DNA from: a virus
Taxonomy: Duplodnaviria; Caudoviricetes
DNA: 64,000 nucleotides
Strand: one strand, 5' to 3'
IMG/VR virus record: IMGVR_UViG_3300031993_000012
Location: 32,001 to 96,000 of that record
The notes under the pieces are model-generated. The model saw only the letters and a list, made by a program, of their open reading frames with translations, had not been told where the DNA came from and ran no database searches. Numbering within the stretch: position 1 is the stretch's first letter; each line of letters opens with the position of its first letter. Below are positions 3,508-19,928 of this stretch, in pieces. Position numbers and translations under genes: made by a program.

Positions 3508-3508
3508 A

Positions 3509-3608: not shown

Positions 3609-3614
3609 ATCTAT

Positions 3615-3722: not shown

Positions 3723-3726
3723 AATC

Positions 3727-3835: not shown

Positions 3836-3843
3836 AATCATAT

Positions 3844-3960
3844 GAAGGTGTTAGTTTAGTTGGTTAAAACGCGTTAAGGAATCTAGTGATAGATTCGTAC
3901 AGCATATTATTTGCATATGGCGCACGAGACACATGTTCAAATCATGTACACCTTCTTCCA
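3844..3960 (+). ncRNA. tRNA-His-like gene with 38-nt insertion in anticodon stem (ATG anticodon if removed)
   Basis: 8-bp GAAGGTGT/ACACCTTC acceptor (G-1:C73-like); insert 3875-3912 splits CGT|GC; residual arm CGTGC-ATATGGC-GCACG. Confidence 0.7.
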
Positions 3961-3963
3961 GAT

Positions 3964-4570
3964 GTGACATTAGCGCAGTCGGTAGCGCATTCGCTTTAAA
4001 GGAGAAATAATATGGAATTATCAACACATGCTAAAGGAGTTGTAACAGAATTAGCTGTACAACAAGCATTCATTAAACATGGATTCGGCGTATCAGTCCC
4101 AGTGTTACCCACTTCTAGATATGACATGATTGCTGATATTGATAGCAATTTATTCAAAGTCCAAATTAAAACAGCTAAGAAACTTCCAAATTCAGATGCC
4201 TTTATGATCAGAACGAAATCAACTAGAACACATCGATACGGTGTATCCGTTGTTAAATATACAGCGGATGAAATTGATATGTTTGCTACATGTTATAATG
4301 GTGATGTCTATGTTGTTCCACAATATTTAGCACAAGGAACTGAATTCATTTTTAGAAATTCATCAGCGAGTAACCAGAAAGTTGGTATTCATTTTGCATC
4401 TGATTTTAAGTTGGATAATGTTGTTGAAAAATGGAGAAATCAATCATTATCATTCAACAATAACCAACTTTATTTGAATAATAATGTATTATGATTATAT
4501 GATATTATTCAAATATAATAATTATCCTTTAAAGCGTGGGTCGTGGATTCGAGTTCCACATGTCACACCA
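3964..4570 (+). tRNA. tRNA gene interrupted in its anticodon loop by an endonuclease ORF
   Basis: 5' half GTGACAT-TA-GCGC-AGTCGGTA-GCGC-A-TTCGC (3964-3994); 3' half GCGTG-GGTC-GTGGA-TTCGAGT-TCCAC-ATGTCAC-ACCA (4534-4570); acceptor halves perfectly complementary. Confidence 0.8.
4012..4494 (+). CDS. PD-(D/E)XK endonuclease, PDDEXK_5 / I-Ssp6803I-like homing endonuclease family
   Basis: KG..TE...F.K.G..VS.P.....RYD.I.D......VQIKT pattern; RBS AAAGGAGA. Confidence 0.8.
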   Translation: MELSTHAKGVVTELAVQQAFIKHGFGVSVPVLPTSRYDMIADIDSNLFKVQIKTAKKLPNSDAFMIRTKSTRTHRYGVSVVKYTADEIDMFATCYNGDVYVVPQYLAQGTEFIFRNSSASNQKVGIHFASDFKLDNVVEKWRNQSLSFNNNQLYLNNNVL

Positions 4571-4726
4571 TTGCGGTCTTCAGACAGCCGCAACAATTCC
4601 TAATCACGGCTGGCACTTATACATCCCTTCGTGTCAGCCACATATGTAACCAATGAGCTTGTCCATCTCAGAGGTTGCACCTCAATTGACAGCGATATCC
4701 ACGCCGCTGTTACATATCCTTTCATT

Positions 4727-4754
4727 TACGGCAGCTCCTTCGGGAGCTGCTGTA
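4727..4754 (+). terminator. stable UUCG hairpin closing the RNA island
   Basis: TACGGCAGCTCC-TTCG-GGAGCTGCTGTA; no clear U-tract, so it could be a processing or stability hairpin. Confidence 0.45.
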
Positions 4755-4782
4755 GTACCATTTATCTTTAGGAGGAATTTTT

Positions 4783-5523
4783 ATGTTACCCGAAATAATC
4801 AATTATGCTGATGAGAAAACTCACGAATTTCGTAAATCCATTGTCAGTGGTAAACCAAAAACAATATTGGTTATACATGATGATGACAGATCGAAATATC
4901 TTGGATTGTTTGCTATGTTAAGCGGCAATAAATGTGAGATAATAAACAATTCAACCGCAATGTATCATATATCCCACGACGTTATATTTGACGATGGTAT
5001 ATCAATTGATGATATTACATTCAATATATTTGATAAAGGTAATCTTTCTGAAACTCATGTCAGAATGGTAAAAATGCCAGATGATATATTAAATGAAACC
5101 ATCAGAGATATTGCATTAGGTAAAATAACCGAAGCTCCATTAGTAGTAAGCTTGTTGACGATGTATGAAAAATGTAATGGTACGGAATATATGACCAAAG
5201 TATACACAGATGTCAGATGCGATGATAAAACTGTCGATTTATATCATGATAATCATTATAATGTCACATCAAATTCAGAGAGAATCAAATCTACGGATCC
5301 TTATGATCAGATGGAAACAGCCATGATATTTAAAAACTATTTATCATATGGATTGACTGTGTGGTATATATTCCAAAAGGTCATTGGTGATGATGAATTA
5401 AAACAGTTCGTCACCAAATGCAAATGTAAACACAAATATTGTGGTAAAGAAATAACTGTTACTAAATATTCAATAGCATGTCAGAAATTGATACTTCATT
5501 TGGCTGAACGTATGAAAAAATAA
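4783..5523 (+). CDS. hypothetical protein
   Basis: 246 aa, RBS AGGAGG; followed by hairpin ATCCCCAGA/TCTGGGGAT + T run. Confidence 0.8.
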   Translation: MLPEIINYADEKTHEFRKSIVSGKPKTILVIHDDDRSKYLGLFAMLSGNKCEIINNSTAMYHISHDVIFDDGISIDDITFNIFDKGNLSETHVRMVKMPDDILNETIRDIALGKITEAPLVVSLLTMYEKCNGTEYMTKVYTDVRCDDKTVDLYHDNHYNVTSNSERIKSTDPYDQMETAMIFKNYLSYGLTVWYIFQKVIGDDELKQFVTKCKCKHKYCGKEITVTKYSIACQKLILHLAERMKK

Positions 5524-5602
5524 TATGATATCCCCAGATAATTCTGGGGATATATTTTTTGTGTAATATGAACATTAGAGTATAAAAACATTACATGAAT
5601 GA

Positions 5603-5677
5603 TTCCGTATCGCCAAGGGGTTAAGGCAGATGTCTTTGAAGCATCTATCGCTCGTTCGATCCGAGCTACGGAAACCA
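5603..5677 (+). tRNA. tRNA-Gln(UUG)
   Basis: TTCCGTA/TACGGAA+ACCA, GATGT-CTTTGAA-GCATC anticodon arm, GCTCG-TTCGATC-CGAGC T arm. Confidence 0.92.
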
Positions 5678-5919
5678 AAGGAAGTTTACTTCCAAACAGA
5701 TGTGAGGTTCACGTTTTCACATTTGTCTCCTTAACTTTTAGCCATGTGGATACTAGTTGCCACCTTCTCTGGTATCCACGCGCTTCTTTTGTTCTATATC
5801 CTACTTCTAATTTTAGCCCGGGTTATTCCCGGGCATCTATTTTTTTCAAATTCCATATTTATATTATTTAATTGGATTCTATGAACGTAGAATCAAAAAT
5901 ATATCGGAGGTATAAAAAT

Positions 5920-5994
5920 ATGTTTGCAAAATTAATCGAATTCATTAGAGGTATCGTATCATTCCTGAGCGGAATGTTATTTGCCATCAGATAA
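5920..5994 (+). CDS. 24-aa amphipathic peptide (not in ORF track)
   Basis: MFAKLIEFIRGIVSFLSGMLFAIR; RBS GGAGGT; stop overlaps RBS of next gene. Confidence 0.55.
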   Translation: MFAKLIEFIRGIVSFLSGMLFAIR

Positions 5995-6007
5995 GGAGGA
6001 ACATAAA

Positions 6008-6748
6008 ATGGAAATATTATTAGATAACAAAAGTATCGCTGAAAAGATTGCATATGTAGATGCAGTGGAGCGCGTTGCATTGTGTAGTAATCAGTATGTA
6101 TATACTGCATTTCATAATGTAATTGTCACCGATAATGTTGAATTTGATGTAGATTTCTACATAGGAGATCCACGAGAGGTAGATTGGGATTATACTCAGC
6201 TCGATGAAGAAACCGTTAGATTTAAATTCGACGAATCTGACATTAAACTTCTTAAGGAATGCCATAATAGTAAAGAGCTTAATCAGGTGGTTCACAAAAT
6301 TCTTATATCGTGTATCGAGAAGCTTAACAAAGAACTGAGTGATCTAATCGGTGCTGGATATGTTGATTTTCAAACAATGATCTACTATAATAACTATACG
6401 AATGTAATCAGAAGCTGGAAGAATCTTAGAATTGATTCAGGGTGGCAAATCAAAAAACCTAACAATTATGGTGCAACAGATAGCGTTAAACAGGGTGACT
6501 CTGATTGGGGTGTACTCCAATTTATATGGGGAACTGCTGTTTATAAATTTGGAGATTATGGTACATCTCCTAGAGTCGGATGGATAGATATCAAAGAACA
6601 TCCAGAATTCTATGAATGGATAGATGCTGTATGTTTCGATGACATCAGTAATAACATATCCGTGAAGACAAAAGAATTGACTAATGAATTCAGAAAGGTG
6701 GTGAAGAATATTGGGGCCGTCAGTCCTGAAGACAATCGTGCAACTTGA
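6008..6748 (+). CDS. hypothetical protein
   Basis: Start reassigned to ATG 6008 after AAGGAGGA. Confidence 0.8.
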   Translation: MEILLDNKSIAEKIAYVDAVERVALCSNQYVYTAFHNVIVTDNVEFDVDFYIGDPREVDWDYTQLDEETVRFKFDESDIKLLKECHNSKELNQVVHKILISCIEKLNKELSDLIGAGYVDFQTMIYYNNYTNVIRSWKNLRIDSGWQIKKPNNYGATDSVKQGDSDWGVLQFIWGTAVYKFGDYGTSPRVGWIDIKEHPEFYEWIDAVCFDDISNNISVKTKELTNEFRKVVKNIGAVSPEDNRAT

Positions 6749-6845
6749 TGTTCGATCAACTATTGATATGATTGTTGTCGCATTTTGTATGCTGATGATT
6801 ATCCGGTATGGTCAATATCGGAAGAAGAAAAGGAGTAAAAAGTAA
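6711..6845 (+). CDS. putative 44-aa small membrane protein (not in ORF track)
   Basis: TTG start after AAAGGTGGTGA; hydrophobic MIVVAFCMLMII then RKKKRSKK; TAATG coupling to 6845. Confidence 0.4.
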   Translation: MGPSVLKTIVQLDVRSTIDMIVVAFCMLMIIRYGQYRKKKRSKK

Positions 6846-7306
6846 TGGAAGACAAAATATATATTCATTATGGATCAGATCATTTTGACCCAGAATTATT
6901 TAAAGAAGCGGAATATGAATCTGAGTTCGATTTTAAACCCTATAAAGGTGGATTATGGGCATCAGAGGACACGGATGATGAGTCATATCATTCTTGGCGA
7001 GAATGGTGTGAAATAGAATGTTTTGAACTTTATAGGTTAGAAACATCTTTCCGTTTCAAACTTGCGGAACATCAGAAACCATTCGTAGTTAAAGATGATT
7101 CTATTATTGAAACTAAATATTGTGGTTATTGCAACCCATACAATATTCATCGATTTTCTCGGTTACATCTGAATTTAGATGAACTCAAACGTGATGGATA
7201 TACTCATATTGAGTTTCATAAAAATTCATGGACACACTGGGCTTTCTATAGCTGGGATTGCGATTGTATATTAATATTGGACCCAACGGTAATAGTCCCA
7301 GTGTGA
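6845..7306 (+). CDS. conserved-looking phage hypothetical protein
   Basis: YIHYG...KP.KGGLWAS...WREWC...WDCDCILIL motifs; RBS AAGGAG. Confidence 0.8.
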   Translation: MEDKIYIHYGSDHFDPELFKEAEYESEFDFKPYKGGLWASEDTDDESYHSWREWCEIECFELYRLETSFRFKLAEHQKPFVVKDDSIIETKYCGYCNPYNIHRFSRLHLNLDELKRDGYTHIEFHKNSWTHWAFYSWDCDCILILDPTVIVPV

Positions 7307-7322
7307 ATCGAGGTGATGAAGA

Positions 7323-7589
7323 ATGATTATAAATGACATGACAGTCATACCAAAGAAAGATAAAGAAACCGAGTATGACGTTGTTAAGGGACACAAACGG
7401 ACGATAACAATTAAACGACACAACATCGGATTACAATTCGAAGCGGAATTGACATTTGATGAATATTATTGGGTATTCGGTGATCGAAGACCTGAGAAAT
7501 TCAATCTGGCATTCGAATCCGCATTGTATGAATTTATCCGAGAAGAGTTCAAGGAGGACGAAGATGAACAAGTTAAAAATCACGGGTAG
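7323..7589 (+). CDS. hypothetical protein
   Basis: RBS GAGGTGA. Confidence 0.7.
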   Translation: MIINDMTVIPKKDKETEYDVVKGHKRTITIKRHNIGLQFEAELTFDEYYWVFGDRRPEKFNLAFESALYEFIREEFKEDEDEQVKNHG

Positions 7590-7860
7590 TACACCCCTGA
7601 ATTGCACCGGTCTCGTAACAGGAGACTATTACATCATTGATGATGGACATAAAAAGATCGGTCAATTAATATCGGCTACGATTTTGAATATTATATTCAG
7701 AATATATGTTTCGGATAACGTAGTCGTATATGATGAACTGAGAATCCCAACAATTGATTTGATTGACAGTTCTACGATAATCACACACATCGGTGATAAT
7801 TTACCGGTGAATGAGTTGGCTGAAATCCTTTGTGATATACCGAAGGATGAAATGATGTAA
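7564..7860 (+). CDS. hypothetical protein
   Basis: Start reassigned to ATG 7564 after AAGGAGGA. Confidence 0.7.
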   Translation: MNKLKITGSTPLNCTGLVTGDYYIIDDGHKKIGQLISATILNIIFRIYVSDNVVVYDELRIPTIDLIDSSTIITHIGDNLPVNELAEILCDIPKDEMM

Positions 7861-7861
7861 C

Positions 7862-8161
7862 ATGAAACTGTACAATGATTCATCAAACAACAAACAAATC
7901 GCAATCAAAGATATCATATACATGATAACGCAATTGGATAAATTTATCCAATTATATGACAAATGTATATACGAAACTGACGATGAACAACGTCGTGCAA
8001 TTACTAAACTGGAAGACATTGTTCATCTGTTCAAAAAACGCGACTTCGAATATTTGTTCGAAGATAAAATCAATCTGATTGATTGGGATACAACAACATC
8101 AAAATTCACTCCAGATGAAATAAAAGCATGGAGAGAATTCTTCAAAAAGAATCCGTATTGA
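7862..8161 (+). CDS. hypothetical protein
   Basis: 99-aa ORF in operon. Confidence 0.7.
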   Translation: MKLYNDSSNNKQIAIKDIIYMITQLDKFIQLYDKCIYETDDEQRRAITKLEDIVHLFKKRDFEYLFEDKINLIDWDTTTSKFTPDEIKAWREFFKKNPY

Positions 8162-8176
8162 AAGGAATGATAAACA

Positions 8177-9073
8177 TTGGATATCACACAATTTAAACCA
8201 TTCGTAATCGAGAAGCTACTATTGTCGTTGGTCAGACGACATCAGATTCGTTCGGTTACAAACACAGATACTCGTTTTGATATAGAAACGGAGAACCATA
8301 TAATTCATGGTTATTCGTATGAAGCACATGGTCTCCAATGTTTATCAATATCAATTGAACGAAATAAAGTTGAAGAATATTTAATAAAACTATATTACTC
8401 TGAACAAACGAAATATCACGAAATGATGAAACAACATTTATCGACATTCGATGCTGATGTGTTATCACCTTTGAACAATGTATTTGATGATTGGGATCAT
8501 GGTCGACTGGCTGTGATCTCATTCGGTCATCGTGATTCTGTTGCAAATTTATTTCGTTATAAAATTGCTGTCAGTCAACAAAACAAGTTAATGATTGCTC
8601 GATCCAAAAGTGGATTTTCATATGCATTCTTAGATTCCGATATGAAATCATTTATTGAGAATCGTGATCTAGGAATTACGACGAATATCATATTAAGGAG
8701 ACTTGATAATTTGGAATTTAAATCGTTGACTTCCGAAATGCCATTTGGTCCAGCGTTAGAGTTATTTGAAGACGCTATCAAAACTCCACTTGAAAAACCA
8801 CCTATACATTACAATATCATCACAATCAATTCGCGACCACCATATATTATGAAATCTCCTACGAGAAATGTATGGATTGTTGTATTAGAAATCGACGAAA
8901 AACATTCTAAATGTCGATCTGGTTATATTGATAATGAACCAGATCCATATGCAATATCGTGGAATGTATATAATATACGAACTACGAAGATATACTACTA
9001 TAAAGAATTACGTCGATATCAAATAATGCGTGGAAATGATTGTGTGGATATCACACATCTAATACGTGAATAA
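8177..9073 (+). CDS. hypothetical protein
   Basis: 298 aa, TTG start after AAAGGA. Confidence 0.75.
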   Translation: MDITQFKPFVIEKLLLSLVRRHQIRSVTNTDTRFDIETENHIIHGYSYEAHGLQCLSISIERNKVEEYLIKLYYSEQTKYHEMMKQHLSTFDADVLSPLNNVFDDWDHGRLAVISFGHRDSVANLFRYKIAVSQQNKLMIARSKSGFSYAFLDSDMKSFIENRDLGITTNIILRRLDNLEFKSLTSEMPFGPALELFEDAIKTPLEKPPIHYNIITINSRPPYIMKSPTRNVWIVVLEIDEKHSKCRSGYIDNEPDPYAISWNVYNIRTTKIYYYKELRRYQIMRGNDCVDITHLIRE

Positions 9074-9136
9074 TAATTATAACACCCGGGTTTAACCCGG
9101 GTGTATATAAACTTTTACTGTGAAAGGAATAATATA

Positions 9137-9520
9137 ATGGAAACCGTAAACATACCTTGGACACAAGAGGAAATCAATCTCAGATATTTGGATTTATTCA
9201 TTGAATGTTTGAATAAACCGATGGACAAGTTATTTGTGAATAATCGTTTACAAGTATCATTACCAAGTAAATATGTCCAATTCGATCCAGCACACGGTGC
9301 TTGTATCAAATATAATAATCTGATCAGAGGTCACGTCGACAAGGATTTTATAATTCAAGTCACAGATGTCATTAATGATGATTTACTTGAATACATGTCT
9401 GAAGAACGTTTGATGCTTATAAAAGAAAAGTATAGACGTTTCAGAAGAAAGTACATTCTTGAAACACGTGCTGATCTATTGTATGAGAAAATGAAACAGG
9501 AGCCTGAGGAAGATGAGTAA
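9137..9520 (+). CDS. hypothetical protein
   Basis: ATG 9137 after GAAAGGA. Confidence 0.7.
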   Translation: METVNIPWTQEEINLRYLDLFIECLNKPMDKLFVNNRLQVSLPSKYVQFDPAHGACIKYNNLIRGHVDKDFIIQVTDVINDDLLEYMSEERLMLIKEKYRRFRRKYILETRADLLYEKMKQEPEEDE

Positions 9521-9992
9521 ACTGAAAGAACTCAATAAAATACAACCATACATGACAACAAACTGTCAATTGGTATTCTCCAATAAATTCAACCCACTTG
9601 AGGTGTATGATATGCTCTTCAATGATGAAACTCTGAGAGCGTTATTTGAATCTCGTTGGGTATTATGTAGAATCGGAGAGTATCCAATGTCAAGATATGA
9701 CTACGATAGATTCATTACAAAGTTCTCTAGTCCCTGTGTAATGATGGATACAATCATTGAAATGGATCACACATATCAGGGCAACATTACAGTCCCAACA
9801 CAATACGAACCGATGTTCAGAAGTCTTGAACACCCGGTGATTCACCCGGTGGTTATAAGTAATACAGAGTCCATGACTGGATTCCGTATTGCATACTTCG
9901 TAGTATATGATAAATCTGAACTGATTTCTACCAACATCTATTCAGGTAAATGGTGGGACTATGGAAGGGATGATAAGAATGAAACTCGATAA
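9513..9992 (+). CDS. hypothetical protein
   Basis: 159 aa, overlaps upstream stop. Confidence 0.75.
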   Translation: MSKLKELNKIQPYMTTNCQLVFSNKFNPLEVYDMLFNDETLRALFESRWVLCRIGEYPMSRYDYDRFITKFSSPCVMMDTIIEMDHTYQGNITVPTQYEPMFRSLEHPVIHPVVISNTESMTGFRIAYFVVYDKSELISTNIYSGKWWDYGRDDKNETR

Positions 9993-10032
9993 AGGCTGGT
10001 ATTAGATGATATAATTTAGGAGGTATCCCAAT

Positions 10033-10476
10033 ATGAGTATGGACAAGATCCAAGAAGTACTTCATTCAGAATTCGACATCAAAACGCATAAAGAAACTTT
10101 CACTAACTATTTGGAAGTAATAATAGACGAAGAAGGAAGAATCATGTATGCCGTTCCATCACATATGGAAAGACTCATTAAAGTGTATATGGAACGATAT
10201 AATGTGACCCGTAAAGAAATCGTAAATAAACTTACATATGACGCACCATGTGAATATGGATTAGACCTATCCGCTTATCTGTGTGATAAGCTTCATTGTA
10301 TTTGTGTATGGTTTGATAGTTACAGAGGAAAACCTAATCAAATACAACTCAACAAATTGAAGACATTACGTCTGTCTGGTATATATCATGGTCCAGTCCA
10401 TGATATATATGAAGAAGAACAAAAGAAAATGAAAACATTAATAAATGAATTAAAAGAGTTTGCTAAGGAGGTATAA
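10033..10476 (+). CDS. conserved-looking phage hypothetical protein
   Basis: YLEVIID..G.I.YAVPSH motif; RBS AGGAGGT. Confidence 0.8.
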   Translation: MSMDKIQEVLHSEFDIKTHKETFTNYLEVIIDEEGRIMYAVPSHMERLIKVYMERYNVTRKEIVNKLTYDAPCEYGLDLSAYLCDKLHCICVWFDSYRGKPNQIQLNKLKTLRLSGIYHGPVHDIYEEEQKKMKTLINELKEFAKEV

Positions 10477-10477
10477 T

Positions 10478-10957
10478 ATGAATAAAAGGTTCAGAAAGAA
10501 GTGTAGGAAAGCAGCGAAGATTCATAAGAATATCTTCTATGCCTATAACCTGGCGCGCAAGCTCAATCAGCAGTGTAGTGGTTGTTCGTCAGATTACCAT
10601 CACTTCAGAAAGACCAATCTGAAACGTTGTCTAACATACCATAAGTGGTGTATAAAGCATAACAAGAAGCTGTCTGATATGTACTATAGTATTCAGACAA
10701 GAAACAAAAGAAAATATTCTCCAGAGTTCGTGTTTAATGCCTTGAAGGATTTCAAAAAGGGTCATCTAGTAGATGATATTTCTCATCCCGTTTCAAGTAG
10801 AGAAAACATTGAATATGCTCAATCTTGCGTGTTGGATTTTAGAATAACACCACGTTTCGAAATAAACGACGATGGTTCAATGAAACTTACATCGTTTGGA
10901 TTAGTTAAGGAGGATTTACATGAATCAACGACAAAAGAAAAAGCAGACAAATCGTAA
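10478..10957 (+). CDS. basic hypothetical protein
   Basis: ATG 10478 after AAGGAGGT; N-terminus MNKRFRKK. Confidence 0.75.
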   Translation: MNKRFRKKCRKAAKIHKNIFYAYNLARKLNQQCSGCSSDYHHFRKTNLKRCLTYHKWCIKHNKKLSDMYYSIQTRNKRKYSPEFVFNALKDFKKGHLVDDISHPVSSRENIEYAQSCVLDFRITPRFEINDDGSMKLTSFGLVKEDLHESTTKEKADKS

Positions 10958-11231
10958 ACCGTTCAACAAAGTTCATTCAGCCGTACGTTATGAGATAGCT
11001 ATCTACATAGAGAAGAGAGCAATCAAAGCTGGAATTGAACCTAACAAGAGAGCCATCTGGAGTTATACCAGATGGCTTGCTCATAACCTGTCAGAAGATG
11101 ACTGGTATAAAACAACATTAATCGCTTGCGGTGTACCGCGTGGTGTATTCACAAAATCTTTATGGGATATGAACGATGAAGAGATTGAATTCCTTGAAGC
11201 GCTTGGTGTTTATAAAGCTAAGGAGGATTAA
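10920..11231 (+). CDS. hypothetical protein
   Basis: RBS AAGGAGG; N-terminus MNQRQKKK. Confidence 0.75.
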   Translation: MNQRQKKKQTNRKPFNKVHSAVRYEIAIYIEKRAIKAGIEPNKRAIWSYTRWLAHNLSEDDWYKTTLIACGVPRGVFTKSLWDMNDEEIEFLEALGVYKAKED

Positions 11232-11233
11232 TT

Positions 11234-11446
11234 ATGGACCATGATTCCCAAGAGAACGAAATCATTGAAGTCAAAATACCAGGTAAGATCCTGAATATAA
11301 CTATCACAAAGAATGACTTTGGTTTAGCAGATGTTCTTATAAAAGATTTGACAAAAGACGAAATGGTTGTACTTATGGATCACATCTGTGAGTTATTCAA
11401 TGTCAGCGATGCCAATTTTTCAATAGAAAATAAAGAGGAGGATTAA
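11234..11446 (+). CDS. acidic hypothetical protein
   Basis: RBS AAGGAGG. Confidence 0.7.
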   Translation: MDHDSQENEIIEVKIPGKILNITITKNDFGLADVLIKDLTKDEMVVLMDHICELFNVSDANFSIENKEED

Positions 11447-11448
11447 TT

Positions 11449-11745
11449 ATGAGAGGCAAATGGTTTAGAAAGAAGAAGAAAGCTCTTAGAAAGAACTATG
11501 AAGCTTTCGTTAAGAATCGCACAAGACTTTACGATTACACCAAGGGATGTTCCAAGGTGATCTATTCAACAAAGGGTGAATATAAATTCGATTCAATGTC
11601 TTACAAGAAAGCACTTAACTACCATAAGAGAACAGTGATCATTCCGCAGGCTAGAAAAGAACTGGCAGAATTCATCGAACGTGGTCGTATGTTCTATGGT
11701 AGAAGATATAATTTCAAATTAGAAAAGGAGCATTTGTACTTATGA
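11449..11745 (+). CDS. basic hypothetical protein
   Basis: RBS GAGGAGG. Confidence 0.7.
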   Translation: MRGKWFRKKKKALRKNYEAFVKNRTRLYDYTKGCSKVIYSTKGEYKFDSMSYKKALNYHKRTVIIPQARKELAEFIERGRMFYGRRYNFKLEKEHLYL

Positions 11746-12539
11746 ACGATATCAAAGAACCAGACATAATCAAACAGTATGTTTGTATCGCAGAGAACAC
11801 AGATATGCATATCATGAAAGTGCTTGAAATCACAGGAGACCTTGATATAGCTAAAAGAGTGTGTATGGCTCACATATATGAAGTAGCTGAAAGGGAGAAA
11901 GATCCTGACTTAAAGGTCGAGAGCACAATGTGGAAGGAAGAGCTTGCAGGAATAACAATAACGTATCAACTCCGTGGTGAGAAGACCGATTCCACTGTAT
12001 ACAAAGTGAGAATCCTGTTCTTCGAAAGAGATTGGAACGAGATAATGAAGAGACGGAAACAGCTCACTGAGGTTACCGACACTCCGATTGTTACAGCATC
12101 TCAGGAACCTTCCAATCAGCCTCTGAAGAAGGCTCTCGATGAGATCAAAGATTACAAGAATCTTATTGGTCCTCCATCACATCCTCAAAATGAATATATG
12201 GAGTACAACTTCAAATATCTTTCAACTAAGCAGAATGGTGACAAATTGATCCCAGTTCTCAATATGAATGCATTCAAGTGGGGATTTCCCTACATGATAA
12301 TGACTAACATGTCGCCGTGCATAGATGGCAGATGCATATACACAGATGATGTTGTTGTAACATATGGAATTGCAGCATGCTTATCTAAAGATGACACCAC
12401 GGTCATATTCATATCAACTTATGATGAACTTGGAGACACAATGTTCGGTTGTATAAGAGAAATCAGAGTGAACGTAAAAGATCTTTGCAGTCGTGTAAAG
12501 ATTAAATGCGTAGGTATGATAGAAGGAGGAGTATTATGA
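11742..12539 (+). CDS. hypothetical protein
   Basis: 265 aa, ATGA overlaps at both ends. Confidence 0.75.
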   Translation: MNDIKEPDIIKQYVCIAENTDMHIMKVLEITGDLDIAKRVCMAHIYEVAEREKDPDLKVESTMWKEELAGITITYQLRGEKTDSTVYKVRILFFERDWNEIMKRRKQLTEVTDTPIVTASQEPSNQPLKKALDEIKDYKNLIGPPSHPQNEYMEYNFKYLSTKQNGDKLIPVLNMNAFKWGFPYMIMTNMSPCIDGRCIYTDDVVVTYGIAACLSKDDTTVIFISTYDELGDTMFGCIREIRVNVKDLCSRVKIKCVGMIEGGVL

Positions 12540-14616: not shown

Positions 14617-14931
14617 TTAACCATTTAATTCGATACCGAATACATGTTGTACATATTTAACGTAACAATCCACATACATCAAATCATTAGCTTTGTCGTA
14701 TGTTACTTCGTAATACTTACCGTCTTGAAGATTTGTAGAAATCATTGCTTTCTGATTTCCTAAAATATATGAGTGTGTAACTTCATATACGTCATCAATA
14801 CTGAGTTTAACTTCATCAGTTGGATCTAATTGTTGACGTACAATATCAAGTACAGCTTGTCTTGCAGTAGCAATGAACTCGGTACTACCAAGAAATGGTT
14901 TATTGATCTTAATTATGTTATTCATTTTCAT
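14617..14931 (-). CDS. DUF6275-like phage protein
   Basis: DDVY......LGN.KA.IST...DGKYYEVTYD.....MYVD.Y pattern. Confidence 0.7.
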   Translation of the reverse strand: MKMNNIIKINKPFLGSTEFIATARQAVLDIVRQQLDPTDEVKLSIDDVYEVTHSYILGNQKAMISTNLQDGKYYEVTYDKANDLMYVDCYVKYVQHVFGIELNG

Positions 14932-15205
14932 TCACCCCATGTTTTACACGATCTGCTTGTTCAGCATATTTTGCGTCATTGAATCTACTAAGGTCGCCTG
15001 CTAAATAGCCCGTCACGCGGCGTATACGAACAAATGGAACTGAATGTTTATGAACTTCCAGTTTTGCATATCCTTTAGAATCAAATGATATTATCAATGT
15101 ATCAATGATTTCATCAGGATATTTCTTCGTTACGTAATCAACGTATGCTTGTTTCTCGGCCTCGGATATTTCGGTGATATCACCGTGCTTGAATATGATG
15201 TTCAT
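14918..15205 (-). CDS. stand-alone NrdD C-terminal glycyl-radical domain protein
   Basis: RIRRVTGYL...RFNDAKYAE..DRVKH matches the class III ribonucleotide reductase C-terminus; only 95 aa; RBS AAGGAGG. Confidence 0.8.
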   Translation of the reverse strand: MNIIFKHGDITEISEAEKQAYVDYVTKKYPDEIIDTLIISFDSKGYAKLEVHKHSVPFVRIRRVTGYLAGDLSRFNDAKYAEQADRVKHGVNENE

Positions 15206-15396
15206 ACAGAACCCTCCTTGATAATATAATTATATTAAACCATTGTACAATTATCTAGAATTCTTAAATTCTATATTTATATAATTCTTATGTATAATAG
15301 GAAAGTAACACTTTCTATTATCATATAATATCAATCTTTACGGGTTGTTCCCAGTGTATCTGTACAGATATGCGAATAACAAGAAAGGAGTACGTT

Positions 15397-16176
15397 ATGG
15401 CACGTACAAAGAAAACAACAGTAGAGGAAGCAACTGAGGAGAAGGTTGCATTCCAGCCCAAGAAGACAGTGAAGCTGTTCTTCTTCACAGAAATCCTTGG
15501 AAGCTGCCCCGCAGACAAGGAGATCTACTCAAAGTACATCGCAAAGAATCGTCTTGATGCACCAACCATTCAGGACGAACTCCAGATGGTACCTGAGGAA
15601 GAAGTTATCGAGCAGGGAACCACTTGCTTCCTGGTGAGGACCCACGGAAAGGATAAGGGTAAGCCCTGTCTGGCAGCGTATACAATTCTCGGTTTCATGA
15701 AAGAGAAGACCAAGTATCTCCGTCAGGAACCCGGTAATGGATTTGACAAATTCACCAACTACAAGTCCAAAATCGATGGTAATTTCAACATTGATAAACC
15801 GTTCATTACATTACATCTTCCCGAAGGAGAAGAAATGGGTATCTGTCAGAGACCTCTCAGGGCCGAGACTGCGCAGGGTCCGAGAGTAGCACTCGCTTCC
15901 AGCCTCACATGCCCTCCCGGTACAACCTGCGAATTCGAGCTCTATATCAATAACAAGGAGTTCAATAAGTACGCAATCGGTTGTCTCCGTAAAGGTTTCC
16001 TCAGTGGAACCGGTCAGTGGCGTTCTTCTCAGCAGAAAGGCAGATTCCTGTTTGAAATCTATGATGCTGATGATACTTATATTGACGGTAATACCAAAGA
16101 ACATGTAGGTTGTCTTTCAACTGATGCCAACTGGGAAGAAATGTGGAGCGACTTCCTCGACGAATATCGTCTGTAA
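15397..16176 (+). CDS. solitary Cas7/RAMP-like protein
   Basis: N-terminal strand KLFFFTEILGS, helix ILGFMKE, thumb-like RPLRAETAQGPRVAL, PGT.CEFEL, and C-terminal Gly loop GFLSGTGQWRS...GRF typical of RAMPs; RBS GAAAGGAG. Confidence 0.75.
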   Translation: MARTKKTTVEEATEEKVAFQPKKTVKLFFFTEILGSCPADKEIYSKYIAKNRLDAPTIQDELQMVPEEEVIEQGTTCFLVRTHGKDKGKPCLAAYTILGFMKEKTKYLRQEPGNGFDKFTNYKSKIDGNFNIDKPFITLHLPEGEEMGICQRPLRAETAQGPRVALASSLTCPPGTTCEFELYINNKEFNKYAIGCLRKGFLSGTGQWRSSQQKGRFLFEIYDADDTYIDGNTKEHVGCLSTDANWEEMWSDFLDEYRL

Positions 16177-16190
16177 TACCTAATACCAAT

Positions 16191-16220
16191 AATGAGCGCG
16201 GATAAAACCGCGCTCATTTT
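16191..16220 (+). terminator. intrinsic terminator / processing hairpin
   Basis: AATGAGCGCGG-ATAAAA-CCGCGCTCATT-TT. Confidence 0.75.
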
Positions 16221-16250
16221 GTATGCTGACTGAAACCAGTACTGTTTTAA

Positions 16251-17263
16251 GTGTAAAGTAAAGTCGAGTTAGGTTCAGTATTGGTTCAGTGGAGTTAAGT
16301 CTAGTCATGTACAGGTGTTGTGGAGCGGCGCTGTGTTTGGGTGATGCAAAGCGAAGTCTTGCTTAGGTATAGTACGGTATTGTCCCGTATGGGTATGATA
16401 ATGTTCCGCAAAGCACAGTGAGCTTTTGTAACGGTAAAGCTGAGTATTGCAGCGTTGAGGTATAGTCAAGTATGGTTGTGTGCTGTATAGGTCGGGCGAA
16501 GTTTCGTTCTGTATAGTGACGGTATAGTTATGAAGCGTAGCGTAGAGGTATGGCACGGTTACGCGCTGTACAGGCATAGTATGGTATCGTTATGTCATGG
16601 CACTGCATTGTGGTGTCTGGCATTGGCAATGCAAAGTAACGCGAAGCATTGGTGCAGTGAGGTGTTGTTCTGTGAAGGCATCATTATGAATCGTATTGTA
16701 ATGTGTGGATTTAGCTCGGTCTAGTTTTGTCCGGTGACGGCGTAGTAATGTTAGGCGAGGCGATGCAAAGGTGTCGTGCAGTGAAGCACCGTTTAGGCAT
16801 GGTAAAGCATAGCTTTGTTTAGGTGCGGCTGAGTCTGGTCCGGTTTTGTGAAGGTGCAGCAGGGTTCCGTGGTGCACTGTGGCGTAGAGTATCGGTATAG
16901 TCACGTAAGGTTTGGTATAGGCATGGTGTAGTAAAGCATAGTTGTGGTATAGCTATGCATCGTAAGGTTTGTATTGGTATAGTGTAGTCCTGTAACGCTG
17001 AGCACTGGTGTAGCGAGGTATTGCTCTGTCGAGTGGTGGTAAAGCATGACAAGGTAATGTTGAGTAGAGGTGAAGTGAAGTCTTGCGGGGTTTTGCTGTG
17101 GTACTGTGATGCGACCTATTGCTTTGTATTGGTACAGCTCAGCACTGTAATGTCGTGTCAGGTTCAGGTACAGTTTAGCCAAGTGAGGTGGAGTATAGTA
17201 TAGGTATAGATATGTACAGTCAAATGCTGTCAAGGTTAAGCTGAGTAAAGTCTACTTCTGTAA
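16251..17263 (+). repeat. nested pentamer array 1: about 34 units of G(GYNNN)n, putative guide-RNA array
   Basis: Hand parse, e.g. GGTGAT-GCAAA-GCGAA-GTCTT-GCTTA|GGTATA-GTACG-GTATT-GTCCC-GTATG; G/T-rich, C-poor plus strand. Confidence 0.9.
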
Positions 17264-17294
17264 TGAGTAAAATATAACGAAAGGAGTCTTATCC

Positions 17295-17696
17295 ATGAAA
17301 GATAAGAAAATCAAGAAAGTTTTGAAGTCGATTCAAAACGGAGAAATCTCAGCCAAACAACTGAAAGAAATCCTTGCTGAAAACCCCGAACTCAAAGACA
17401 TCATTGACTTAGTGAATCCTGAAGTCACATGGAAGAAACATCCAATGTATCCGTTCGTGGAAACATCGAGCAATGGTCAGATTAAAGTTTCTGGTGAACT
17501 TGTAAAGCCACGGGTATGGGATGGCTTGTTGAAAGTAACGCTGCAGTATGGCAAGAAACGGTTATACGCAGCGTTACTCATATTACAATGCTGGGAACCA
17601 TGTCCGGGTAAATTAACCGACTATACTGTCGGTTACATTGACGATAACGTCAATAACCTAAAGCCGTCTAATCTATATTGGAAGGCCAAAAAATAA
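17295..17696 (+). CDS. NUMOD4 + degenerate (probably inactive) HNH domain protein
   Basis: E.TWK...YP..ETSSNGQIK (NUMOD4-like); VGYIDDNVNNLKPSNLYW aligns to V.H.DG...NN...NL.W with His replaced by Tyr; RBS AAAGGAG. Confidence 0.7.
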   Translation: MKDKKIKKVLKSIQNGEISAKQLKEILAENPELKDIIDLVNPEVTWKKHPMYPFVETSSNGQIKVSGELVKPRVWDGLLKVTLQYGKKRLYAALLILQCWEPCPGKLTDYTVGYIDDNVNNLKPSNLYWKAKK

Positions 17697-17708
17697 ACGA
17701 CAGTTTAT

Positions 17709-19010
17709 GTGTAAAGTAAAGTGTGGTTCTGTCGTGTTTTGGCATAGCAATGTGTGATATCGTTTCGTATTGGTAAAGCAGAGCATAGTGTAATGCTGTG
17801 AAGGTATGGTAGGGTAAAGTAACGCAAAGGTATCGCGTTGTTCAGTGATGTGACGGTTTGGTAGGGTAATGTAGTGTGTAGCTATGGCATAGCGATGTTC
17901 TGTGAAGTGCGGTCGCGTATTGGTATCGTAAAGTATTGCGGTGTCGCGTAGAGGTTTAGCTTGGTGCTGTATAGTACTGGTGGAGCATAGTTAGGCACAG
18001 CTGGTCTTTGTTTTGTGCTGGTATGGTATGGCGTAGTATAGTCTGCAACGGTGTAGCAAAGTAGCGCGGTGTTCAGGTATAGTGATGATAGTTTTGTTCT
18101 GTATCGGTAAAGTGCTGTATTGCTGGGTAATGGTATTGTATTGTCGCATATTGTCTTGTGAGGGTGAAGGGCAGTATTGTCGCGTAGAGTAGCGGCAAAG
18201 CATAGTGATGTCGCGCAGCGTCATGGTAAAGTCAAGTGATGCTATATGGTGTCAGGTGATGGTAATGTGGGGCAATGTGTAGTATAGTAGAGGCGAAGTC
18301 TAGCGATGCTAGGTTCTGGTGTAGTATAGTACCGGAACGTCTAGTATTGGTACAGTGGAGTACAGCGTTACGAAGTGCTGGTACTGTTAAGTGATGTGTA
18401 GTGTCGGTATGGTAATCCGTAGTGTAGTAGAGGTAATGTGGGGTGTGGCACTGTATAGGTGTGGTGTAGTGTTGTATCGTAATGTCAGGTAATGGCAACG
18501 TAGTACATGGCAATGGTTCAGTGTAGTGCCGCATAGTCACGTAGAGGTTTAGTCTGGTGCCGCATGGTCAGGTTGCGGTTTAGCCTAGTTTCGCTTAGTC
18601 CAGGTAATGTTAAGTCTAGTGTAGTTTTGGTTCAGTGATGTGTGAAGTAATGGTATAGCAATGTCTGGTACTGGTATGGTATAGTCACGTGAAGTGTCGG
18701 TTTGGCGGAGTAAGGTTTAGCTCAGTGATGGCGTGGTAGAGTAAAGCGCGGCACATCGTCGTAATGGCGTAGTCTCGTATAGTATAGTAAAGGTAAAGTG
18801 AAGTATAGTGCTGTAATGTGCCGGTGAGGCAAAGCAAGGTCCCGCTTGGTATTGGTTTGGTGCAGTCAAGTTATGTCACGGTAACGCAGTACATAGTAAT
18901 GTATGGTACAGGCTCAGTTCAGTAGAGCTATGTTTTGGCGAAGCGGGGTATTGTCAAGCGTAGTATGGGTTTCGCAGGGTCCTGTTATGCATTGTGTCGG
19001 TGCTGTGTGA
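17709..19010 (+). repeat. nested pentamer array 2: about 45 units of G(GYNNN)n
   Basis: Same grammar and same first 14 nt (GTGTAAAGTAAAGT) as array 1. Confidence 0.9.
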
Positions 19011-19033
19011 CAGCATTAAAAACCTACACACTT

Positions 19034-19076
19034 AAAAAAAGAATATTCCCGGGTCGCTCCCGGGTATTCTTTTTTT
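19034..19076 (+). terminator. intrinsic terminator after array 2
   Basis: A7-GAATATTCCCGGG...CCCGGGTATTC-T7. Confidence 0.75.
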
Positions 19077-19115: not shown

Positions 19116-19928
19116 ATGGCAACTGTATTACAACCAGACCGAGTTGTTACATGTAACGGAGTCAAGGTAAATCAATATTTTCTGACCGTGAACAATCCAT
19201 TTCATATTGATATGCCTACATCGGAAATGAATAAAGTCATTGGTGTAACAATTCACAATACCGATTGGATATCTGTTATCCAAGGTAGTACACCCGCAGA
19301 GCAATATACACGTGCAACCGTCAATGGTAATATGAATGATGTCCGTGTTCATTATTATGTTGATGATAAATGTGCATGGCAAAATTTACCATTGAATCGT
19401 GCAGGATGGCATGCTGCTGATGGTAAAGGTGATGGTAACAGAAAGACAATCGCTATTGAATGCATCATGTCACCAAATTACAATGGTATCGATCAAGCAT
19501 CAGAATTAAACTGTGCACGTTTGGCTGCGTATTTACTCCATGAATACAAACTCGATATCAATCATTTGTATACACATACACATTGGTTGAATGTTAAAAA
19601 TGGTAAACGTGGTGATGTTGATTTTTTGAATACGGATCCCAGCCCCGAGAAACGGTGCCCTTTGTATATTCTTCCACATTGGAATGAATTCAAAGAAAAA
19701 GTTCATGATTATTTGAATGAACTGAACAATGGTAATGAAATCAATCATACAAATGATATGATATATTTGAAACAAGGAACTCCGATATATCCGAACGCGG
19801 GTGTGAATACCAGAATGAGTGGAATAATAAAAACATCATGCAAATATACAATCGTTGAAAGACGTACTGCATATGGTATAACATGGGGTAGATTAAAATC
19901 AAATAAAGGATGGGTTAAATTGAAATAA
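19116..19928 (+). CDS. endolysin, N-acetylmuramoyl-L-alanine amidase (Amidase_2) with C-terminal SH3-like domain
   Basis: VTIHNT, VHYYVDD, WHAADG..GN..TIAIE, THTHW, K.CP; C-terminal YTIVE....WGRLKS.KGWV. Confidence 0.92.
   Translation: MATVLQPDRVVTCNGVKVNQYFLTVNNPFHIDMPTSEMNKVIGVTIHNTDWISVIQGSTPAEQYTRATVNGNMNDVRVHYYVDDKCAWQNLPLNRAGWHAADGKGDGNRKTIAIECIMSPNYNGIDQASELNCARLAAYLLHEYKLDINHLYTHTHWLNVKNGKRGDVDFLNTDPSPEKRCPLYILPHWNEFKEKVHDYLNELNNGNEINHTNDMIYLKQGTPIYPNAGVNTRMSGIIKTSCKYTIVERRTAYGITWGRLKSNKGWVKLK

What the first reader, a model, noticed from the sequence alone, without database searches (positions are those of the whole stretch)
15397..19076. Solitary Cas7/RAMP-like gene coupled to long GY-NNN periodic arrays: candidate RNA-guided system with non-contiguous guides
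Seen: a 259-aa protein with a RAMP-type C-terminal Gly loop (GFLSGTGQWRS...GRF) is followed on the same strand by about 2.3 kb of non-coding sequence. There GY recurs every 5 nt, separated by variable trinucleotides, and the block ends in a terminator. No cas1/2/3/5/6/10 gene or classical CRISPR repeat-spacer array was seen in this window. Established: Cas7-family RAMPs polymerise along guide RNA with a fixed nucleotide period. Inference: each subunit grips a GY anchor and displays the variable bases, so a target is read as a gapped code, plausibly against competing phages or host genes. From memory (not verified here) this resembles recently reported phage VIPR systems with GGY/NN repeats. 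This locus differs in having three variable positions per period and an extra-G punctuation.
Basis: partly seen in the sequence, partly recalled or inferred. Interest (0 to 1): 0.97.

Follow-up and report, generated by a model that had tools for sequence, protein, structure and literature searches.

The report
Jumbo-phage VIPR guide-RNA system
A giant gut or rumen phage carries a VIPR system, a CRISPR-related RNA-guided DNA silencer first described in 2026, made of one small Cas7-like protein plus about 85 short guides written in five-base steps; it is a real, large example of an already known kind, and its reading rule and targets are still unknown.

Summary
Window 15397-16176 encodes a 259-aa RAMP protein. 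Two same-strand arrays follow (16252-17262 and 17710-19010). They hold 445 pentamers, 92% of them G-Y-NNN, and end at a terminator. The arrays have a second level: one extra G precedes every 5-6 pentamers, giving about 85 modules of 26 or 31 nt.

This is a VIPR system (bioRxiv 10.64898/2026.04.26.720920). The protein folds as a Cas7/Csm3-type RAMP and shares the G-loop motif GxGxWR..GRF with SUSP1 Vipr (PDB 36pp). In 42 of 43 viral homologues the same arrays lie beside the gene. The preprint already lists YNNNG repeats and 'staggered' arrays, so the two claimed differences are not new.

Points added here:
- The 5-6-unit module occurs across the family and matches the published 5-6 subunits per filament turn.
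- The G1-contacting Asp of SUSP1 is Gln here.
- Sister phages swap whole modules and conserve the ones they keep.
- The HNH-like gene is conserved within the clade and probably cannot cut DNA.

No targets were found and the decoding rule is still open. The scan has filed the same kind of system on other DNA before.

The parts
15201..15230 (+). Promoter-like site upstream of vipr (TTCATA-18-TATAAT)
   Evidence: Consensus scan, 10 of 12 matches. This is weak evidence on its own: the count of such sites in the region equals that in shuffles.
15397..16176 (+). vipr gene: a 259-aa stand-alone RAMP (RRM core, thumb hairpin at about residues 148-172, G-loop at about 200-217)
   Evidence: No Pfam, PHROG or NCBIfam family. 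AF2 model with pLDDT 82 and pTM 0.81. Foldseek top hits are Csm3/Cas7 RAMPs at E about 5e-7. The VIA search gives Z up to 11.5 and all 50 top rows are CRISPR RAMPs. The family profile hits the G-loops of Cas7 and Csm4. hhalign against SUSP1 Vipr is collinear, E 5e-4.
16191..16218 (+). 11-bp hairpin between vipr and array 1 (attenuator, terminator or processing element)
   Evidence: Found. Sister phage L059 carries a compensatory A-T to G-C change in the stem.
16235..16264 (+). Leader and start of array 1 (..CAGTACTGTTTTAAGTGTAAAGTAAAGT)
   Evidence: Nearly the same sequence opens array 2, and it is conserved in L059. The GTAAAGT start is semi-conserved in L001 and L003.
16252..17262 (+). vrRNA array 1: about 33 modules of [G]+(GYNNN)x5-6
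   Evidence: Parse. Same-strand arrays lie next to the homologues. The RNA is no more structured than shuffles, z = 0.26. No Rfam family matches.
17295..17696 (+). 133-aa HNH-like gene, a candidate vipr-accessory protein (vap): an N-terminal three-helix segment plus an I-HmuI-like domain with Tyr in place of the catalytic His
   Evidence: phrog_959 'HNH endonuclease', E 7e-11. The only clear structural match of the AF2 model (pLDDT 69) is I-HmuI, 1u3e, probability 1.00. Y114 aligns with I-HmuI His75 and G113 with Asp74, and Y114 is invariant in the three homologues aligned. The gene is on the same strand in L059, L075, L003 and L001/L002.
17700..17722 (+). Leader and start of array 2
17710..19010 (+). 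vrRNA array 2: about 50 modules, including some short or degenerate ones
   Evidence: TRF independently reports a 31-nt period at 18515-18621.
19048..19075 (+). Intrinsic terminator ending the vipr-array unit
   Evidence: GC hairpin plus T-run.

Best explanation
This is a VIPR (Viral Interference Programmable Repeat) system of a rumen or gut jumbo phage.

Expression: vipr, array 1, the HNH-like gene and array 2 are probably transcribed as one unit, from a promoter near 15201 to the terminator at 19048.

Assembly: the Vipr RAMP binds the array RNA with one protomer per pentamer. By homology with SUSP1 Vipr, the G-loop Trp and Arg and the thumb clamp the invariant G and Y of each unit and flip them out. 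The variable bases are left exposed to pair with double-stranded DNA.

Guide unit (inference): each 26- or 31-nt module is one guide. A module is a GG start followed by 5-6 pentamers, which corresponds to about one turn of the Vipr filament. The +1 frame slip at each extra G stops a filament from running on in register, so it sets guide boundaries without the structured 3' tail that type II vrRNAs use.

Function (inference): the roughly 85 different guides direct sequence-specific binding and transcriptional silencing of rival mobile elements, such as other phages, prophages or satellites of the same host. The conserved HNH-derived protein acts as a DNA-binding accessory factor and has probably lost nuclease activity.

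Shown here: the anatomy, the fold, the shared G-loop motif, the linkage across the family, and the evolutionary behaviour of the arrays.
Inferred only: transcription and processing, the filament-per-module model, the decoding rule and the targets.
For: 1. RAMP fold. The AF2 model has pLDDT 82. Every top match is a Cas7, Csm3 or Cmr4 protein (Foldseek E about 5e-7; VIA Z up to 11.5). The family profile hits the G-loops of Cas7 and Csm4 in the PDB.

2. Link to reference Vipr. hhalign against SUSP1 Vipr (confirmed as PDB 36pp) is collinear over 172 columns, E 5e-4. The G-loops align as G-T-G-Q-W-R...G-R-F here and G-V-G-D-W-R...G-R-F in SUSP1.

3. Contact residues. The cryo-EM paper assigns W178 to G2, R179 to Y3 and D177 to G1. 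Here W and R are kept and D is Q. Q is invariant in 55 relatives, and none of them conserves G at the G1 site (16-35% G). The three lineages that lack the Arg are among the lowest in pyrimidine at repeat position 2.

4. Repeat anatomy as in the observation check. The preprint lists YNNNG repeats and staggered arrays.

5. Linkage. Same-strand period-5 G arrays lie next to the gene in 42 of 43 IMG/VR relatives and in most genome contigs relatives. The 5-6-unit punctuation recurs even in GC-rich members.

6. Module size. The 5-6 units per module equal the published filament periodicity of 6 subunits per turn when free and 5 when DNA-bound.

7. Selection. Against sister phage L059, the punctuating G shows 0 changes in 59 sites, G 4%, Y 6% (mostly C-T changes), n3 6%, n4 14% and n5 11%. 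Third codon positions of vipr have changed at 27%. Other sister pairs give similar results.

8. Cassette behaviour. 44 of 78 modules are shared with L059, 12 of them identical. The remaining 34 modules here and 42 of 86 in L059 are unique. Modules are not paralogous to each other.

9. Context. The window is in a virus record of 182 kb, with no Cas1, Cas2 or CRISPR array.

10. RNA. The array RNA is unstructured.
Against: - The sequence link to the one reference Vipr is weak: hhalign probability is 31% against a single sequence, and the family profile finds nothing in the SUSP1 genome. Membership therefore rests on fold, motif and array linkage.
- There is no conserved 3' tail or pseudoknot of the type II kind.
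- No natural target was found under any decoding rule. Own genome and 43 kin loci gave nothing above shuffles. Eight IMG/VR scans and one metagenome scan gave either zero or chance-level hits.
- Under the published NN + 1-skip rule a 5-unit module specifies only 10 nt. 16 of 72 modules then have perfect matches in the phage's own genome, the same rate as shuffled guides. So either the rule or the guide unit differs from type II.
- Expression and processing of the arrays were not tested.
- I could not see the preprint's figures or tables, so I cannot say which of its seven types this belongs to.
Confidence: 0.85

Rival explanations
1. Same VIPR machinery, but the functional guide is not the single module. 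The kilobase transcript, or stretches of several modules, is coated by one long filament. The extra G is a hinge or bulge once per helical turn, and targets are read across module boundaries.
For: A single module read by the canonical NN rule is too unspecific: 10-12 nt, with own-genome perfect matches as frequent as for shuffled guides. There is no conserved processing signal or ribozyme at the boundaries. The spacing of the extra G equals one filament turn.
Against: Three-module read-through decoding with boundary gaps of 0-3 nt gave no match above shuffles in 661 kb of own and kin DNA. Sister phages gain and lose whole single modules while the neighbours stay identical, as expected if each module is an independent unit. 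The preprint describes staggered arrays as consecutive individual vrRNAs.
Confidence: 0.15
2. The arrays are mainly decoys or sponges and not offensive guides. They would be a large pool of vrRNA-like repeats that soaks up or redirects the Vipr proteins of competing phages, as satellite-encoded solo vrRNAs do.
For: The third VIPR paper shows that stand-alone vrRNAs redirect a rival's Vipr to decoy sites. No targets were found for any guide tested.
Against: The arrays are tightly linked to their own vipr gene in 42 of 43 relatives. The variable positions of retained modules are under purifying selection and the modules are all different, which a pure sponge would not need. The target searches had low power.
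Confidence: 0.05
3. The 133-aa HNH-like gene is a selfish homing-endonuclease remnant that happened to land in the array. It is not a functional partner of Vipr.
For: It belongs to a phage HNH homing-endonuclease family. This genome carries other homing-type endonuclease insertions according to earlier notes. The gene is absent from the 40 more distant IMG/VR loci searched with it. Its position varies: directly after vipr in L001/L002, between the arrays elsewhere.
Against: It is kept on the same strand inside the vipr-array unit in five independent loci whose Vipr proteins are 95% to 51% identical. Tyr replaces the catalytic His in all three homologues aligned, which fits a retained non-nuclease role better than a decaying mobile gene. 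Both arrays have their own identical leader, so the gene did not simply split one array. The preprint reports vap proteins with HNH domains.
Confidence: 0.25
4. The periodic tract is not an RNA-guide array at all. It would be a simple-sequence or replication-slippage artefact, or a coding region with a pentapeptide-like bias.
For: ORFs of 50-110 aa can be drawn through the arrays, mostly on the minus strand.
Against: The period is 5 and not 3. G and Y are fixed while all 64 triplets occur at the other positions. The phase shifts by +1 every 5-6 units, which would break any reading frame. The same grammar sits beside homologous RAMP genes in dozens of unrelated phages with different base composition. 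The invariant positions are under strong selection.
Confidence: 0.01

Closest known systems
VIPR systems with alternative YNNNG repeats and 'staggered' vrRNA arrays (types other than II; bioRxiv 10.64898/2026.04.26.720920, methods and legend of fig. S18)
   Same: A lone RAMP gene flanked by long arrays of 5-nt repeats in which only G and Y are fixed. Consecutive guides abut with a 1-nt boundary. The genome is viral, with no cas genes. Accessory proteins with HNH domains are reported.
   Different: I could not see the figures or tables, so the identity of type is not verified. The preprint did not confirm staggered arrays by RNA sequencing and gives no decoding rule for YNNNG repeats. This locus is very large, with about 85 modules over 2.3 kb.
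Type II VIPR of Escherichia phage SUSP1 (Vipr ALH47069.1, PDB 36pp; vap1; four vrRNAs)
   Same: A small RAMP with RRM, thumb and G-loop. The G-loop motif GxGxWR..GRF is shared. One protomer binds per pentamer. The host is a phage. The locus is a compact vipr + accessory gene + same-strand arrays.
   Different: SUSP1 repeats are GGY/NN with two variable bases, 9-16 units per vrRNA, followed by a roughly 40-nt structured tail. Here the repeats are G-Y-NNN, 5-6 units per module, with no tail. The G1-contacting Asp177 is Gln here. The accessory proteins are unrelated. The protein here is 259 aa against 195 aa, with N- and C-terminal extensions. Sequence similarity is marginal.
CRISPR class 1 backbone RAMPs (Csm3/Cmr4/Cas7 of types III and VII)
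   Same: Best structural matches, Z 9-11.5. They use the same thumb and G-loop mode of binding RNA, with a fixed nucleotide period and flipped bases.
   Different: The period is 6 nt, with 5 paired bases and 1 flipped. They work in multi-protein effectors on repeat-spacer crRNAs acquired by Cas1-Cas2. None of those parts is present here.
I-HmuI, HNH homing and nicking endonuclease of Bacillus phage SPO1 (PDB 1u3e), compared with the 133-aa gene
   Same: The fold of the N-terminal HNH domain, 26% identity over 93 columns.
   Different: Tyr and Gly replace His75 and Asp74, the catalytic pair as I recall it from the I-HmuI literature. The C-terminal DNA-binding modules of I-HmuI are absent, and a three-helix N-terminal segment is added.

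Membership tests
VIPR (Vipr + vrRNA) | Stand-alone small RAMP protein with RRM core, thumb hairpin and glycine-rich loop | tested here: met
   AF2 model with pLDDT 82. All top fold matches are Cas7, Csm3 or Cmr4. The profile matches the G-loops of Cas7 and Csm4.
VIPR (Vipr + vrRNA) | Sequence homology to a reference Vipr protein (SUSP1 Vipr, PDB 36pp) | tested here: inconclusive
   hhalign is collinear over 172 columns, E 5e-4, but probability is only 31% against a single sequence. The motif GxG[DQ]WR..GRF is shared. The family profile finds nothing in the SUSP1 genome.
VIPR (Vipr + vrRNA) | Same-strand tandem pentanucleotide repeats next to vipr, with fixed G(G)Y and hypervariable remaining positions | tested here: met
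   445 units, 92% G-Y, three variable positions. This is the YNNNG variant named in the preprint, not the canonical GGY/NN.
VIPR (Vipr + vrRNA) | Protein-array linkage conserved among homologues | tested here: met
   42 of 43 IMG/VR relatives. L001, L003, L059 and L075 also carry arrays.
VIPR (Vipr + vrRNA) | No cas genes or CRISPR array; mostly viral or proviral genomes | tested here: met
   182-kb virus record. Cas1 and Cas2 are absent while control genomes ring. No CRISPR-like array.
VIPR (Vipr + vrRNA) | Conserved structured 3' tail capping each vrRNA (type II feature) | tested here: not met
   The boundary consensus is weak. No Rfam family matches. Folding energy equals that of shuffles. 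The preprint allows tail-less staggered arrays, so this excludes type II and not VIPR as a whole.
VIPR (Vipr + vrRNA) | Neighbouring accessory (vap) gene with a DNA-interacting domain | tested here: met
   The HNH-like gene is conserved inside the unit in five loci.
VIPR (Vipr + vrRNA) | vrRNAs are expressed and co-purify with Vipr | not testable with these tools
   Needs small-RNA sequencing and a pull-down.
VIPR (Vipr + vrRNA) | Variable bases specify gapped DNA targets (1-nt skip) in rival mobile elements | tested here: inconclusive
   No enrichment over shuffled guides locally. Collection scans gave zero or chance-level hits. Power was low because modules are short and only exact patterns could be scanned.
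CRISPR-Cas class 1 | Repeat-spacer array, Cas1-Cas2 adaptation genes and a multi-subunit effector | tested here: not met
   Only the Cas7-like fold is shared.

The most novel reading that the evidence does not exclude
The large 'Q-loop' branch of Vipr proteins has Gln in place of the G1-reading Asp (1,110 clusters at 50% identity). It may use a recognition code different from the published GGY/NN + 1-skip rule. In this reading each protomer fixes only G-Y and presents three informative bases. The guide is a tail-less module of one filament turn (5-6 protomers, 15-18 read bases), delimited purely by a +1 frame slip. Modules are gained and lost as cassettes between sister phages, which hints at an unknown way of acquiring or exchanging guides.
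Probability: 0.3. Interest if true: 0.75.

Novelty: new member of a known kind. Interest (0 to 1): 0.45.

Why it matters
VIPR was described only in 2026 and has been characterised experimentally only for type II (GGY/NN, long tailed guides). This locus is a clean and very large example of the uncharacterised G-Y-NNN, frame-slipped branch, which appears to be the commoner form in gut, rumen and environmental phages.

The analysis here gives testable handles for that branch:
- a residue-level explanation for the relaxed anchor (Asp to Gln in the G-loop);
- a structural rationale for the 26/31-nt module (one filament turn);
- evidence that all three variable bases and the punctuating G are under selection;
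- cassette-like turnover of guides between sister phages;
- a conserved, probably nuclease-dead HNH-type partner.

If the branch reads three bases per protomer, that would widen the design rules for this minimal programmable DNA-binding platform. As a discovery of a new kind of system, however, it has been overtaken by the preprints.

Tried and rejected
1. Family libraries for the protein. Pfam, PHROGs and NCBIfam gave nothing. A single-sequence PDB search also gave nothing.

2. The family profile against the SUSP1 genome gave no hit.

3. The structure libraries I could search predate PDB 36pp, so no direct structural superposition on Vipr was possible.

4. Self- or kin-targeting. Eight decoding rules per module, scanned against the 182-kb genome and 456 kb of kin loci, matched shuffled guides. 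Three-module read-through with gaps of 0-3 nt did the same. One perfect own-genome match under '3 read + 1 skip' (module 16547) is within chance.

5. Reading n3n4n5 as sense codons. There was no stop depletion and no fit to codon usage beyond shuffles.

6. Collection scans.
- n3n4-skip of the 8-unit module 16853 gave 14 IMG/VR hits, which is chance level. The skip bases matched n5 about 25% of the time and other guides did not cluster there.
- Contiguous 21-mers of modules 17131, 17886 and 18458 gave 0 hits in IMG/VR. Module 17131 also gave 0 in metagenome contigs.
- The '3+1' and '3+2' registers of 17131 gave 0 hits.
- n3n4-skip of 17131 gave at least 120 hits. One locus, L200, had 9 guide hits against 2.3 +/- 1.5, but this is not significant once the seed hit is removed and 120 loci are allowed for, and part of it comes from AT-rich low-complexity guides.

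7. Long guides in relatives. The apparent 13-20-unit runs in L026 and L027 were parse artefacts; those arrays are also punctuated every 5-6 units.

8. Paralogy among modules. There was none beyond chance, except the pair 18494/18880.

9. Host genomes.

10. Complex prediction for Vipr with the HNH-like protein.

11. The supplements of the preprint are not held, so the type assignment could not be looked up.

Full report
WHAT IS THERE. The ORF at 15397-16176 (+) encodes a 259-aa protein ending in GFLSGTGQWRSSQQKGRF. A conserved hairpin follows at 16191-16218. After it come two arrays on the same strand, 16252-17262 and 17710-19010. A 133-aa ORF at 17295-17696 separates them, and an intrinsic terminator at 19048-19064 closes the unit.

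Fourier analysis gives a period of 5.18-5.20 nt in the arrays and 3.0 in the flanking genes. A Viterbi parse yields 445 pentamers. Position 1 is G in 93% and position 2 is a pyrimidine in 95%. Positions 3-5 are variable and use all 64 triplets. The parse score is 543 against 85 +/- 13 for shuffles.

The non-integer period has a cause. One extra G is inserted after mostly 5 units (29 blocks) or 6 units (28 blocks), and 75 of 81 phase slips are a single G. This gives about 85 modules of 26 or 31 nt. The base before the extra G avoids G (6%), and the first unit of a module is biased towards GT-A-T-A. Otherwise the boundary carries little information.

Both arrays open with the same leader, GTGTAAAGTAAAGT. 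The array RNA is no more structured than shuffles (z = 0.26) and matches no Rfam family. These are the only such arrays in the 182-kb virus record that holds the window. CheckV rates that record about 68% complete, so it is a jumbo phage. Cas1, Cas2 and CRISPR-like arrays are absent.

THE PROTEIN. No Pfam, PHROG or NCBIfam family matches. The protein nevertheless has a large unannotated family: 191 close clusters and 1,110 clusters at 50% identity with E <= 1e-3. The most conserved stretches are QRPLRAETAQGPRVA and G-x-G-Q-W-R-x-S-G-K-G-R-F.

A profile of 41 members hits the G-loop region of type VII Cas7 (E 0.003) and of Csm4 (E 0.012) in the PDB. An AlphaFold model (pLDDT 82, pTM 0.81) has an RRM-like core, a long beta-hairpin at residues 148-172 (the thumb) and the glycine loop. 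Foldseek returns only CRISPR RAMPs at the top, at E about 5e-7. A Foldseek-independent search of 48,161 chains gives Z up to 11.5 for Cmr4 and Csm3, and all 50 best rows are CRISPR RAMPs.

IT IS A VIPR SYSTEM. Three 2026 preprints describe Viral Interference Programmable Repeat systems. In these systems a lone RAMP, Vipr, polymerises on vrRNAs made of pentanucleotide repeats. It sequesters GGY and presents NN to pair with double-stranded DNA, skipping every third target base. This silences rival phages and satellites.

I located the reference locus in phage SUSP1 through its GGYNN repeats. I confirmed that ALH47069.1 is the protein of PDB 36pp, 'SUSP1 Vipr protein'. Profile-sequence comparison of my family with it is collinear over 172 columns (E 5e-4; probability only 31% against a single sequence). 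It aligns G-T-G-Q-W-R...G-R-F here with G-V-G-D-W-R...G-R-F in SUSP1.

42 of 43 IMG/VR relatives have same-strand period-5 G arrays directly next to the gene. So do the metagenomic relatives L001, L003, L059 and L075. The family occurs in Clostridia, Saccharibacteria, Bacteroidales, Anaerolineae, Thermodesulfobacteriota, an Asgard-archaeon MAG and a cultured Porcincola intestinalis strain.

ARE THE CLAIMED DIFFERENCES NEW? No. The preprint's methods state that loci without YNNGG repeats have 'NNNGG, YNNNG, and NNNNG repeats'. YNNNG is G-Y-NNN read in another register. Its legend to fig. [quoted passage not shown] That fits the extra-G punctuation. I could not see the figures or the supplementary tables. 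So I cannot name the type, and the match to 'staggered' rests on the legend text. Earlier reports of this scan filed G-(GY-NNN)n arrays on other phage DNA as VIPR as well. I treated those as leads only.

WHAT THIS ANALYSIS ADDS.

(a) A residue-level rationale for the relaxed anchor. In SUSP1 Vipr, G1 is read by H17 and D177, G2 by R138 and W178, and Y3 by R179 among others. Here W and R are kept and D177 is Gln. Gln is invariant in 55 relatives, and none of them conserves G at the G1 site (16-35% G). The three lineages that lack the Arg (His or a deletion) are all among the lowest in pyrimidine at repeat position 2. This is suggestive, but there are only three of them.

(b) The 5-6-unit module is found across the family, including GC-rich members whose modules open GGCA. 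It equals the published filament periodicity of 6 subunits per turn when free and 5 when DNA-bound. I infer that a module is one guide and about one filament turn. I also infer that the +1 slip ends the filament register in place of a structured tail. In SUSP1 the repeat tract also ends with a +1 slip (GGTAT-G-GGTAG) where the tail begins.

(c) Selection. Against sister phage L059, whose Vipr is 95% identical, the punctuating G shows 0 changes in 59 sites. G changes at 4%, Y at 6% (nearly all C-T changes), n3 at 6%, n4 at 14% and n5 at 11%. Third codon positions of vipr have changed at 27%. Pooled over sister pairs the rates are G 2.9%, position 2 6.1%, n3 8.0%, n4 9.3% and n5 11.2%. In the four most diverged pairs, third-codon rates are 24-28%. 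All three variable bases of retained modules are therefore constrained, n5 somewhat less than the others. This analysis covers only alignable modules.

(d) Cassette turnover. 44 of 78 modules have a counterpart in L059, and 12 of those are identical. The other 34 modules here and 42 of 86 in L059 are unique. Module lengths, including the rare 7-, 8- and 12-unit ones, are preserved. Modules are not paralogues of one another.

(e) The accessory gene. The 133-aa protein matches phrog_959, 'HNH endonuclease' (E 7e-11). Its model (pLDDT 69) matches only I-HmuI. Its invariant Tyr114 and Gly113 align with I-HmuI His75 and Asp74. That those two residues are catalytic is my recollection of the I-HmuI literature. 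The gene is kept on the same strand inside the unit in L059 (100% identity), L075 (68%), L003 (54%) and L001/L002 (51%, there placed directly after vipr). It is absent from the 40 more distant IMG/VR loci searched with it. I read it as a clade-specific, probably nuclease-dead accessory protein. The rival reading, a homing-endonuclease remnant, keeps about 25%.

DECODING RULE AND TARGETS: OPEN. Under the published NN + 1-skip rule a 5-unit module specifies only 10 nt. 16 of 72 modules then have perfect matches in the phage's own genome, the same rate as shuffled guides. That sits badly with a specific silencer. Together with the constraint on n5 and the Asp-to-Gln change, it makes a three-base reading plausible.

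I could not confirm any rule. Local scans under eight rules, and read-through scans, gave nothing above shuffles. Triplets do not behave as sense codons. Exact-pattern scans of IMG/VR and of the metagenome collection gave zero or chance-level hits. These tests have low power, because only exact patterns of a few long modules could be scanned and the host genome is unknown.

VERDICT. The remaining interest lies in the uncharacterised G-Y-NNN, frame-slipped branch, its possible three-base code and its cassette-like guide turnover.

Noticed in passing
window 14617-14931 (-) and 14918-15205 (-): A DUF6275 / phrog_918 gene and a 95-aa fragment resembling the C-terminus of anaerobic ribonucleotide reductase NrdD sit divergently just upstream of vipr. 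Both are syntenic in L059, L075 and L001. DUF6275-like ORFs also lie about 2.7 kb from vipr in the distant loci L022 and L039. It is unclear whether either is linked to VIPR, or why NrdD is present as a stand-alone C-terminal piece.
   Followed up: partly
L014 (SUSP1, KT454805 27500-29250, minus strand): Each SUSP1 vrRNA repeat tract ends with a +1 slip (..GGTAT G GGTAG..) where the conserved tail begins. This is the same kind of extra-G junction that punctuates the arrays here. It may be a general 'end of guide' signal for Vipr filaments.
   Followed up: no
L076, L024/L025, L016/L017 (G-loop region of the Vipr homologues): The only family members that lack the Arg after Q-W (His or a deletion) have among the lowest pyrimidine content at repeat position 2 (0.20-0.46). 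In SUSP1 this Arg stacks on Y3. This is possible protein-RNA co-variation, based on three independent lineages only.
   Followed up: partly
L084 (Porcincola intestinalis strain Oil+RF-744-WCA-WT-11, NZ_VULZ01000013, about 3483-12163): A cultured Lachnospiraceae isolate carries a family member (36% identity) with a G-NNNN array punctuated every 5-6 units. It would be a tractable organism for experiments on this VIPR branch.
   Followed up: partly
L080 (Promethearchaeota MAG, WJMJ01000154): A Vipr homologue (37% identity) lies on a contig binned to an Asgard archaeon. No array was detected within the 8.6 kb fetched. This could be a mis-binned viral contig or an array-less copy.
   Followed up: no
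L200 (IMG/VR locus fetched): Nine modules of this phage match the 12.5-kb, 35%-GC locus perfectly under the n3n4-skip rule, against 2.3 +/- 1.5 for shuffled guides. This is not significant after removing the seed hit and correcting for 120 loci, and several of the hits come from AT-rich guides. It would be worth re-testing with a full-contig, mismatch-tolerant search.
   Followed up: partly
window 18494-18514 and 18880-18910: This is the only clearly duplicated guide segment in the arrays. The two copies match at 11 of 12 variable bases and share a degenerate ACAT unit.
   Followed up: no
window 19116-19928 (+): An Amidase_2 endolysin (phrog_15001, E 1.5e-78) lies directly downstream of the VIPR terminator. 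It is syntenic in L059 and L075.
   Followed up: no
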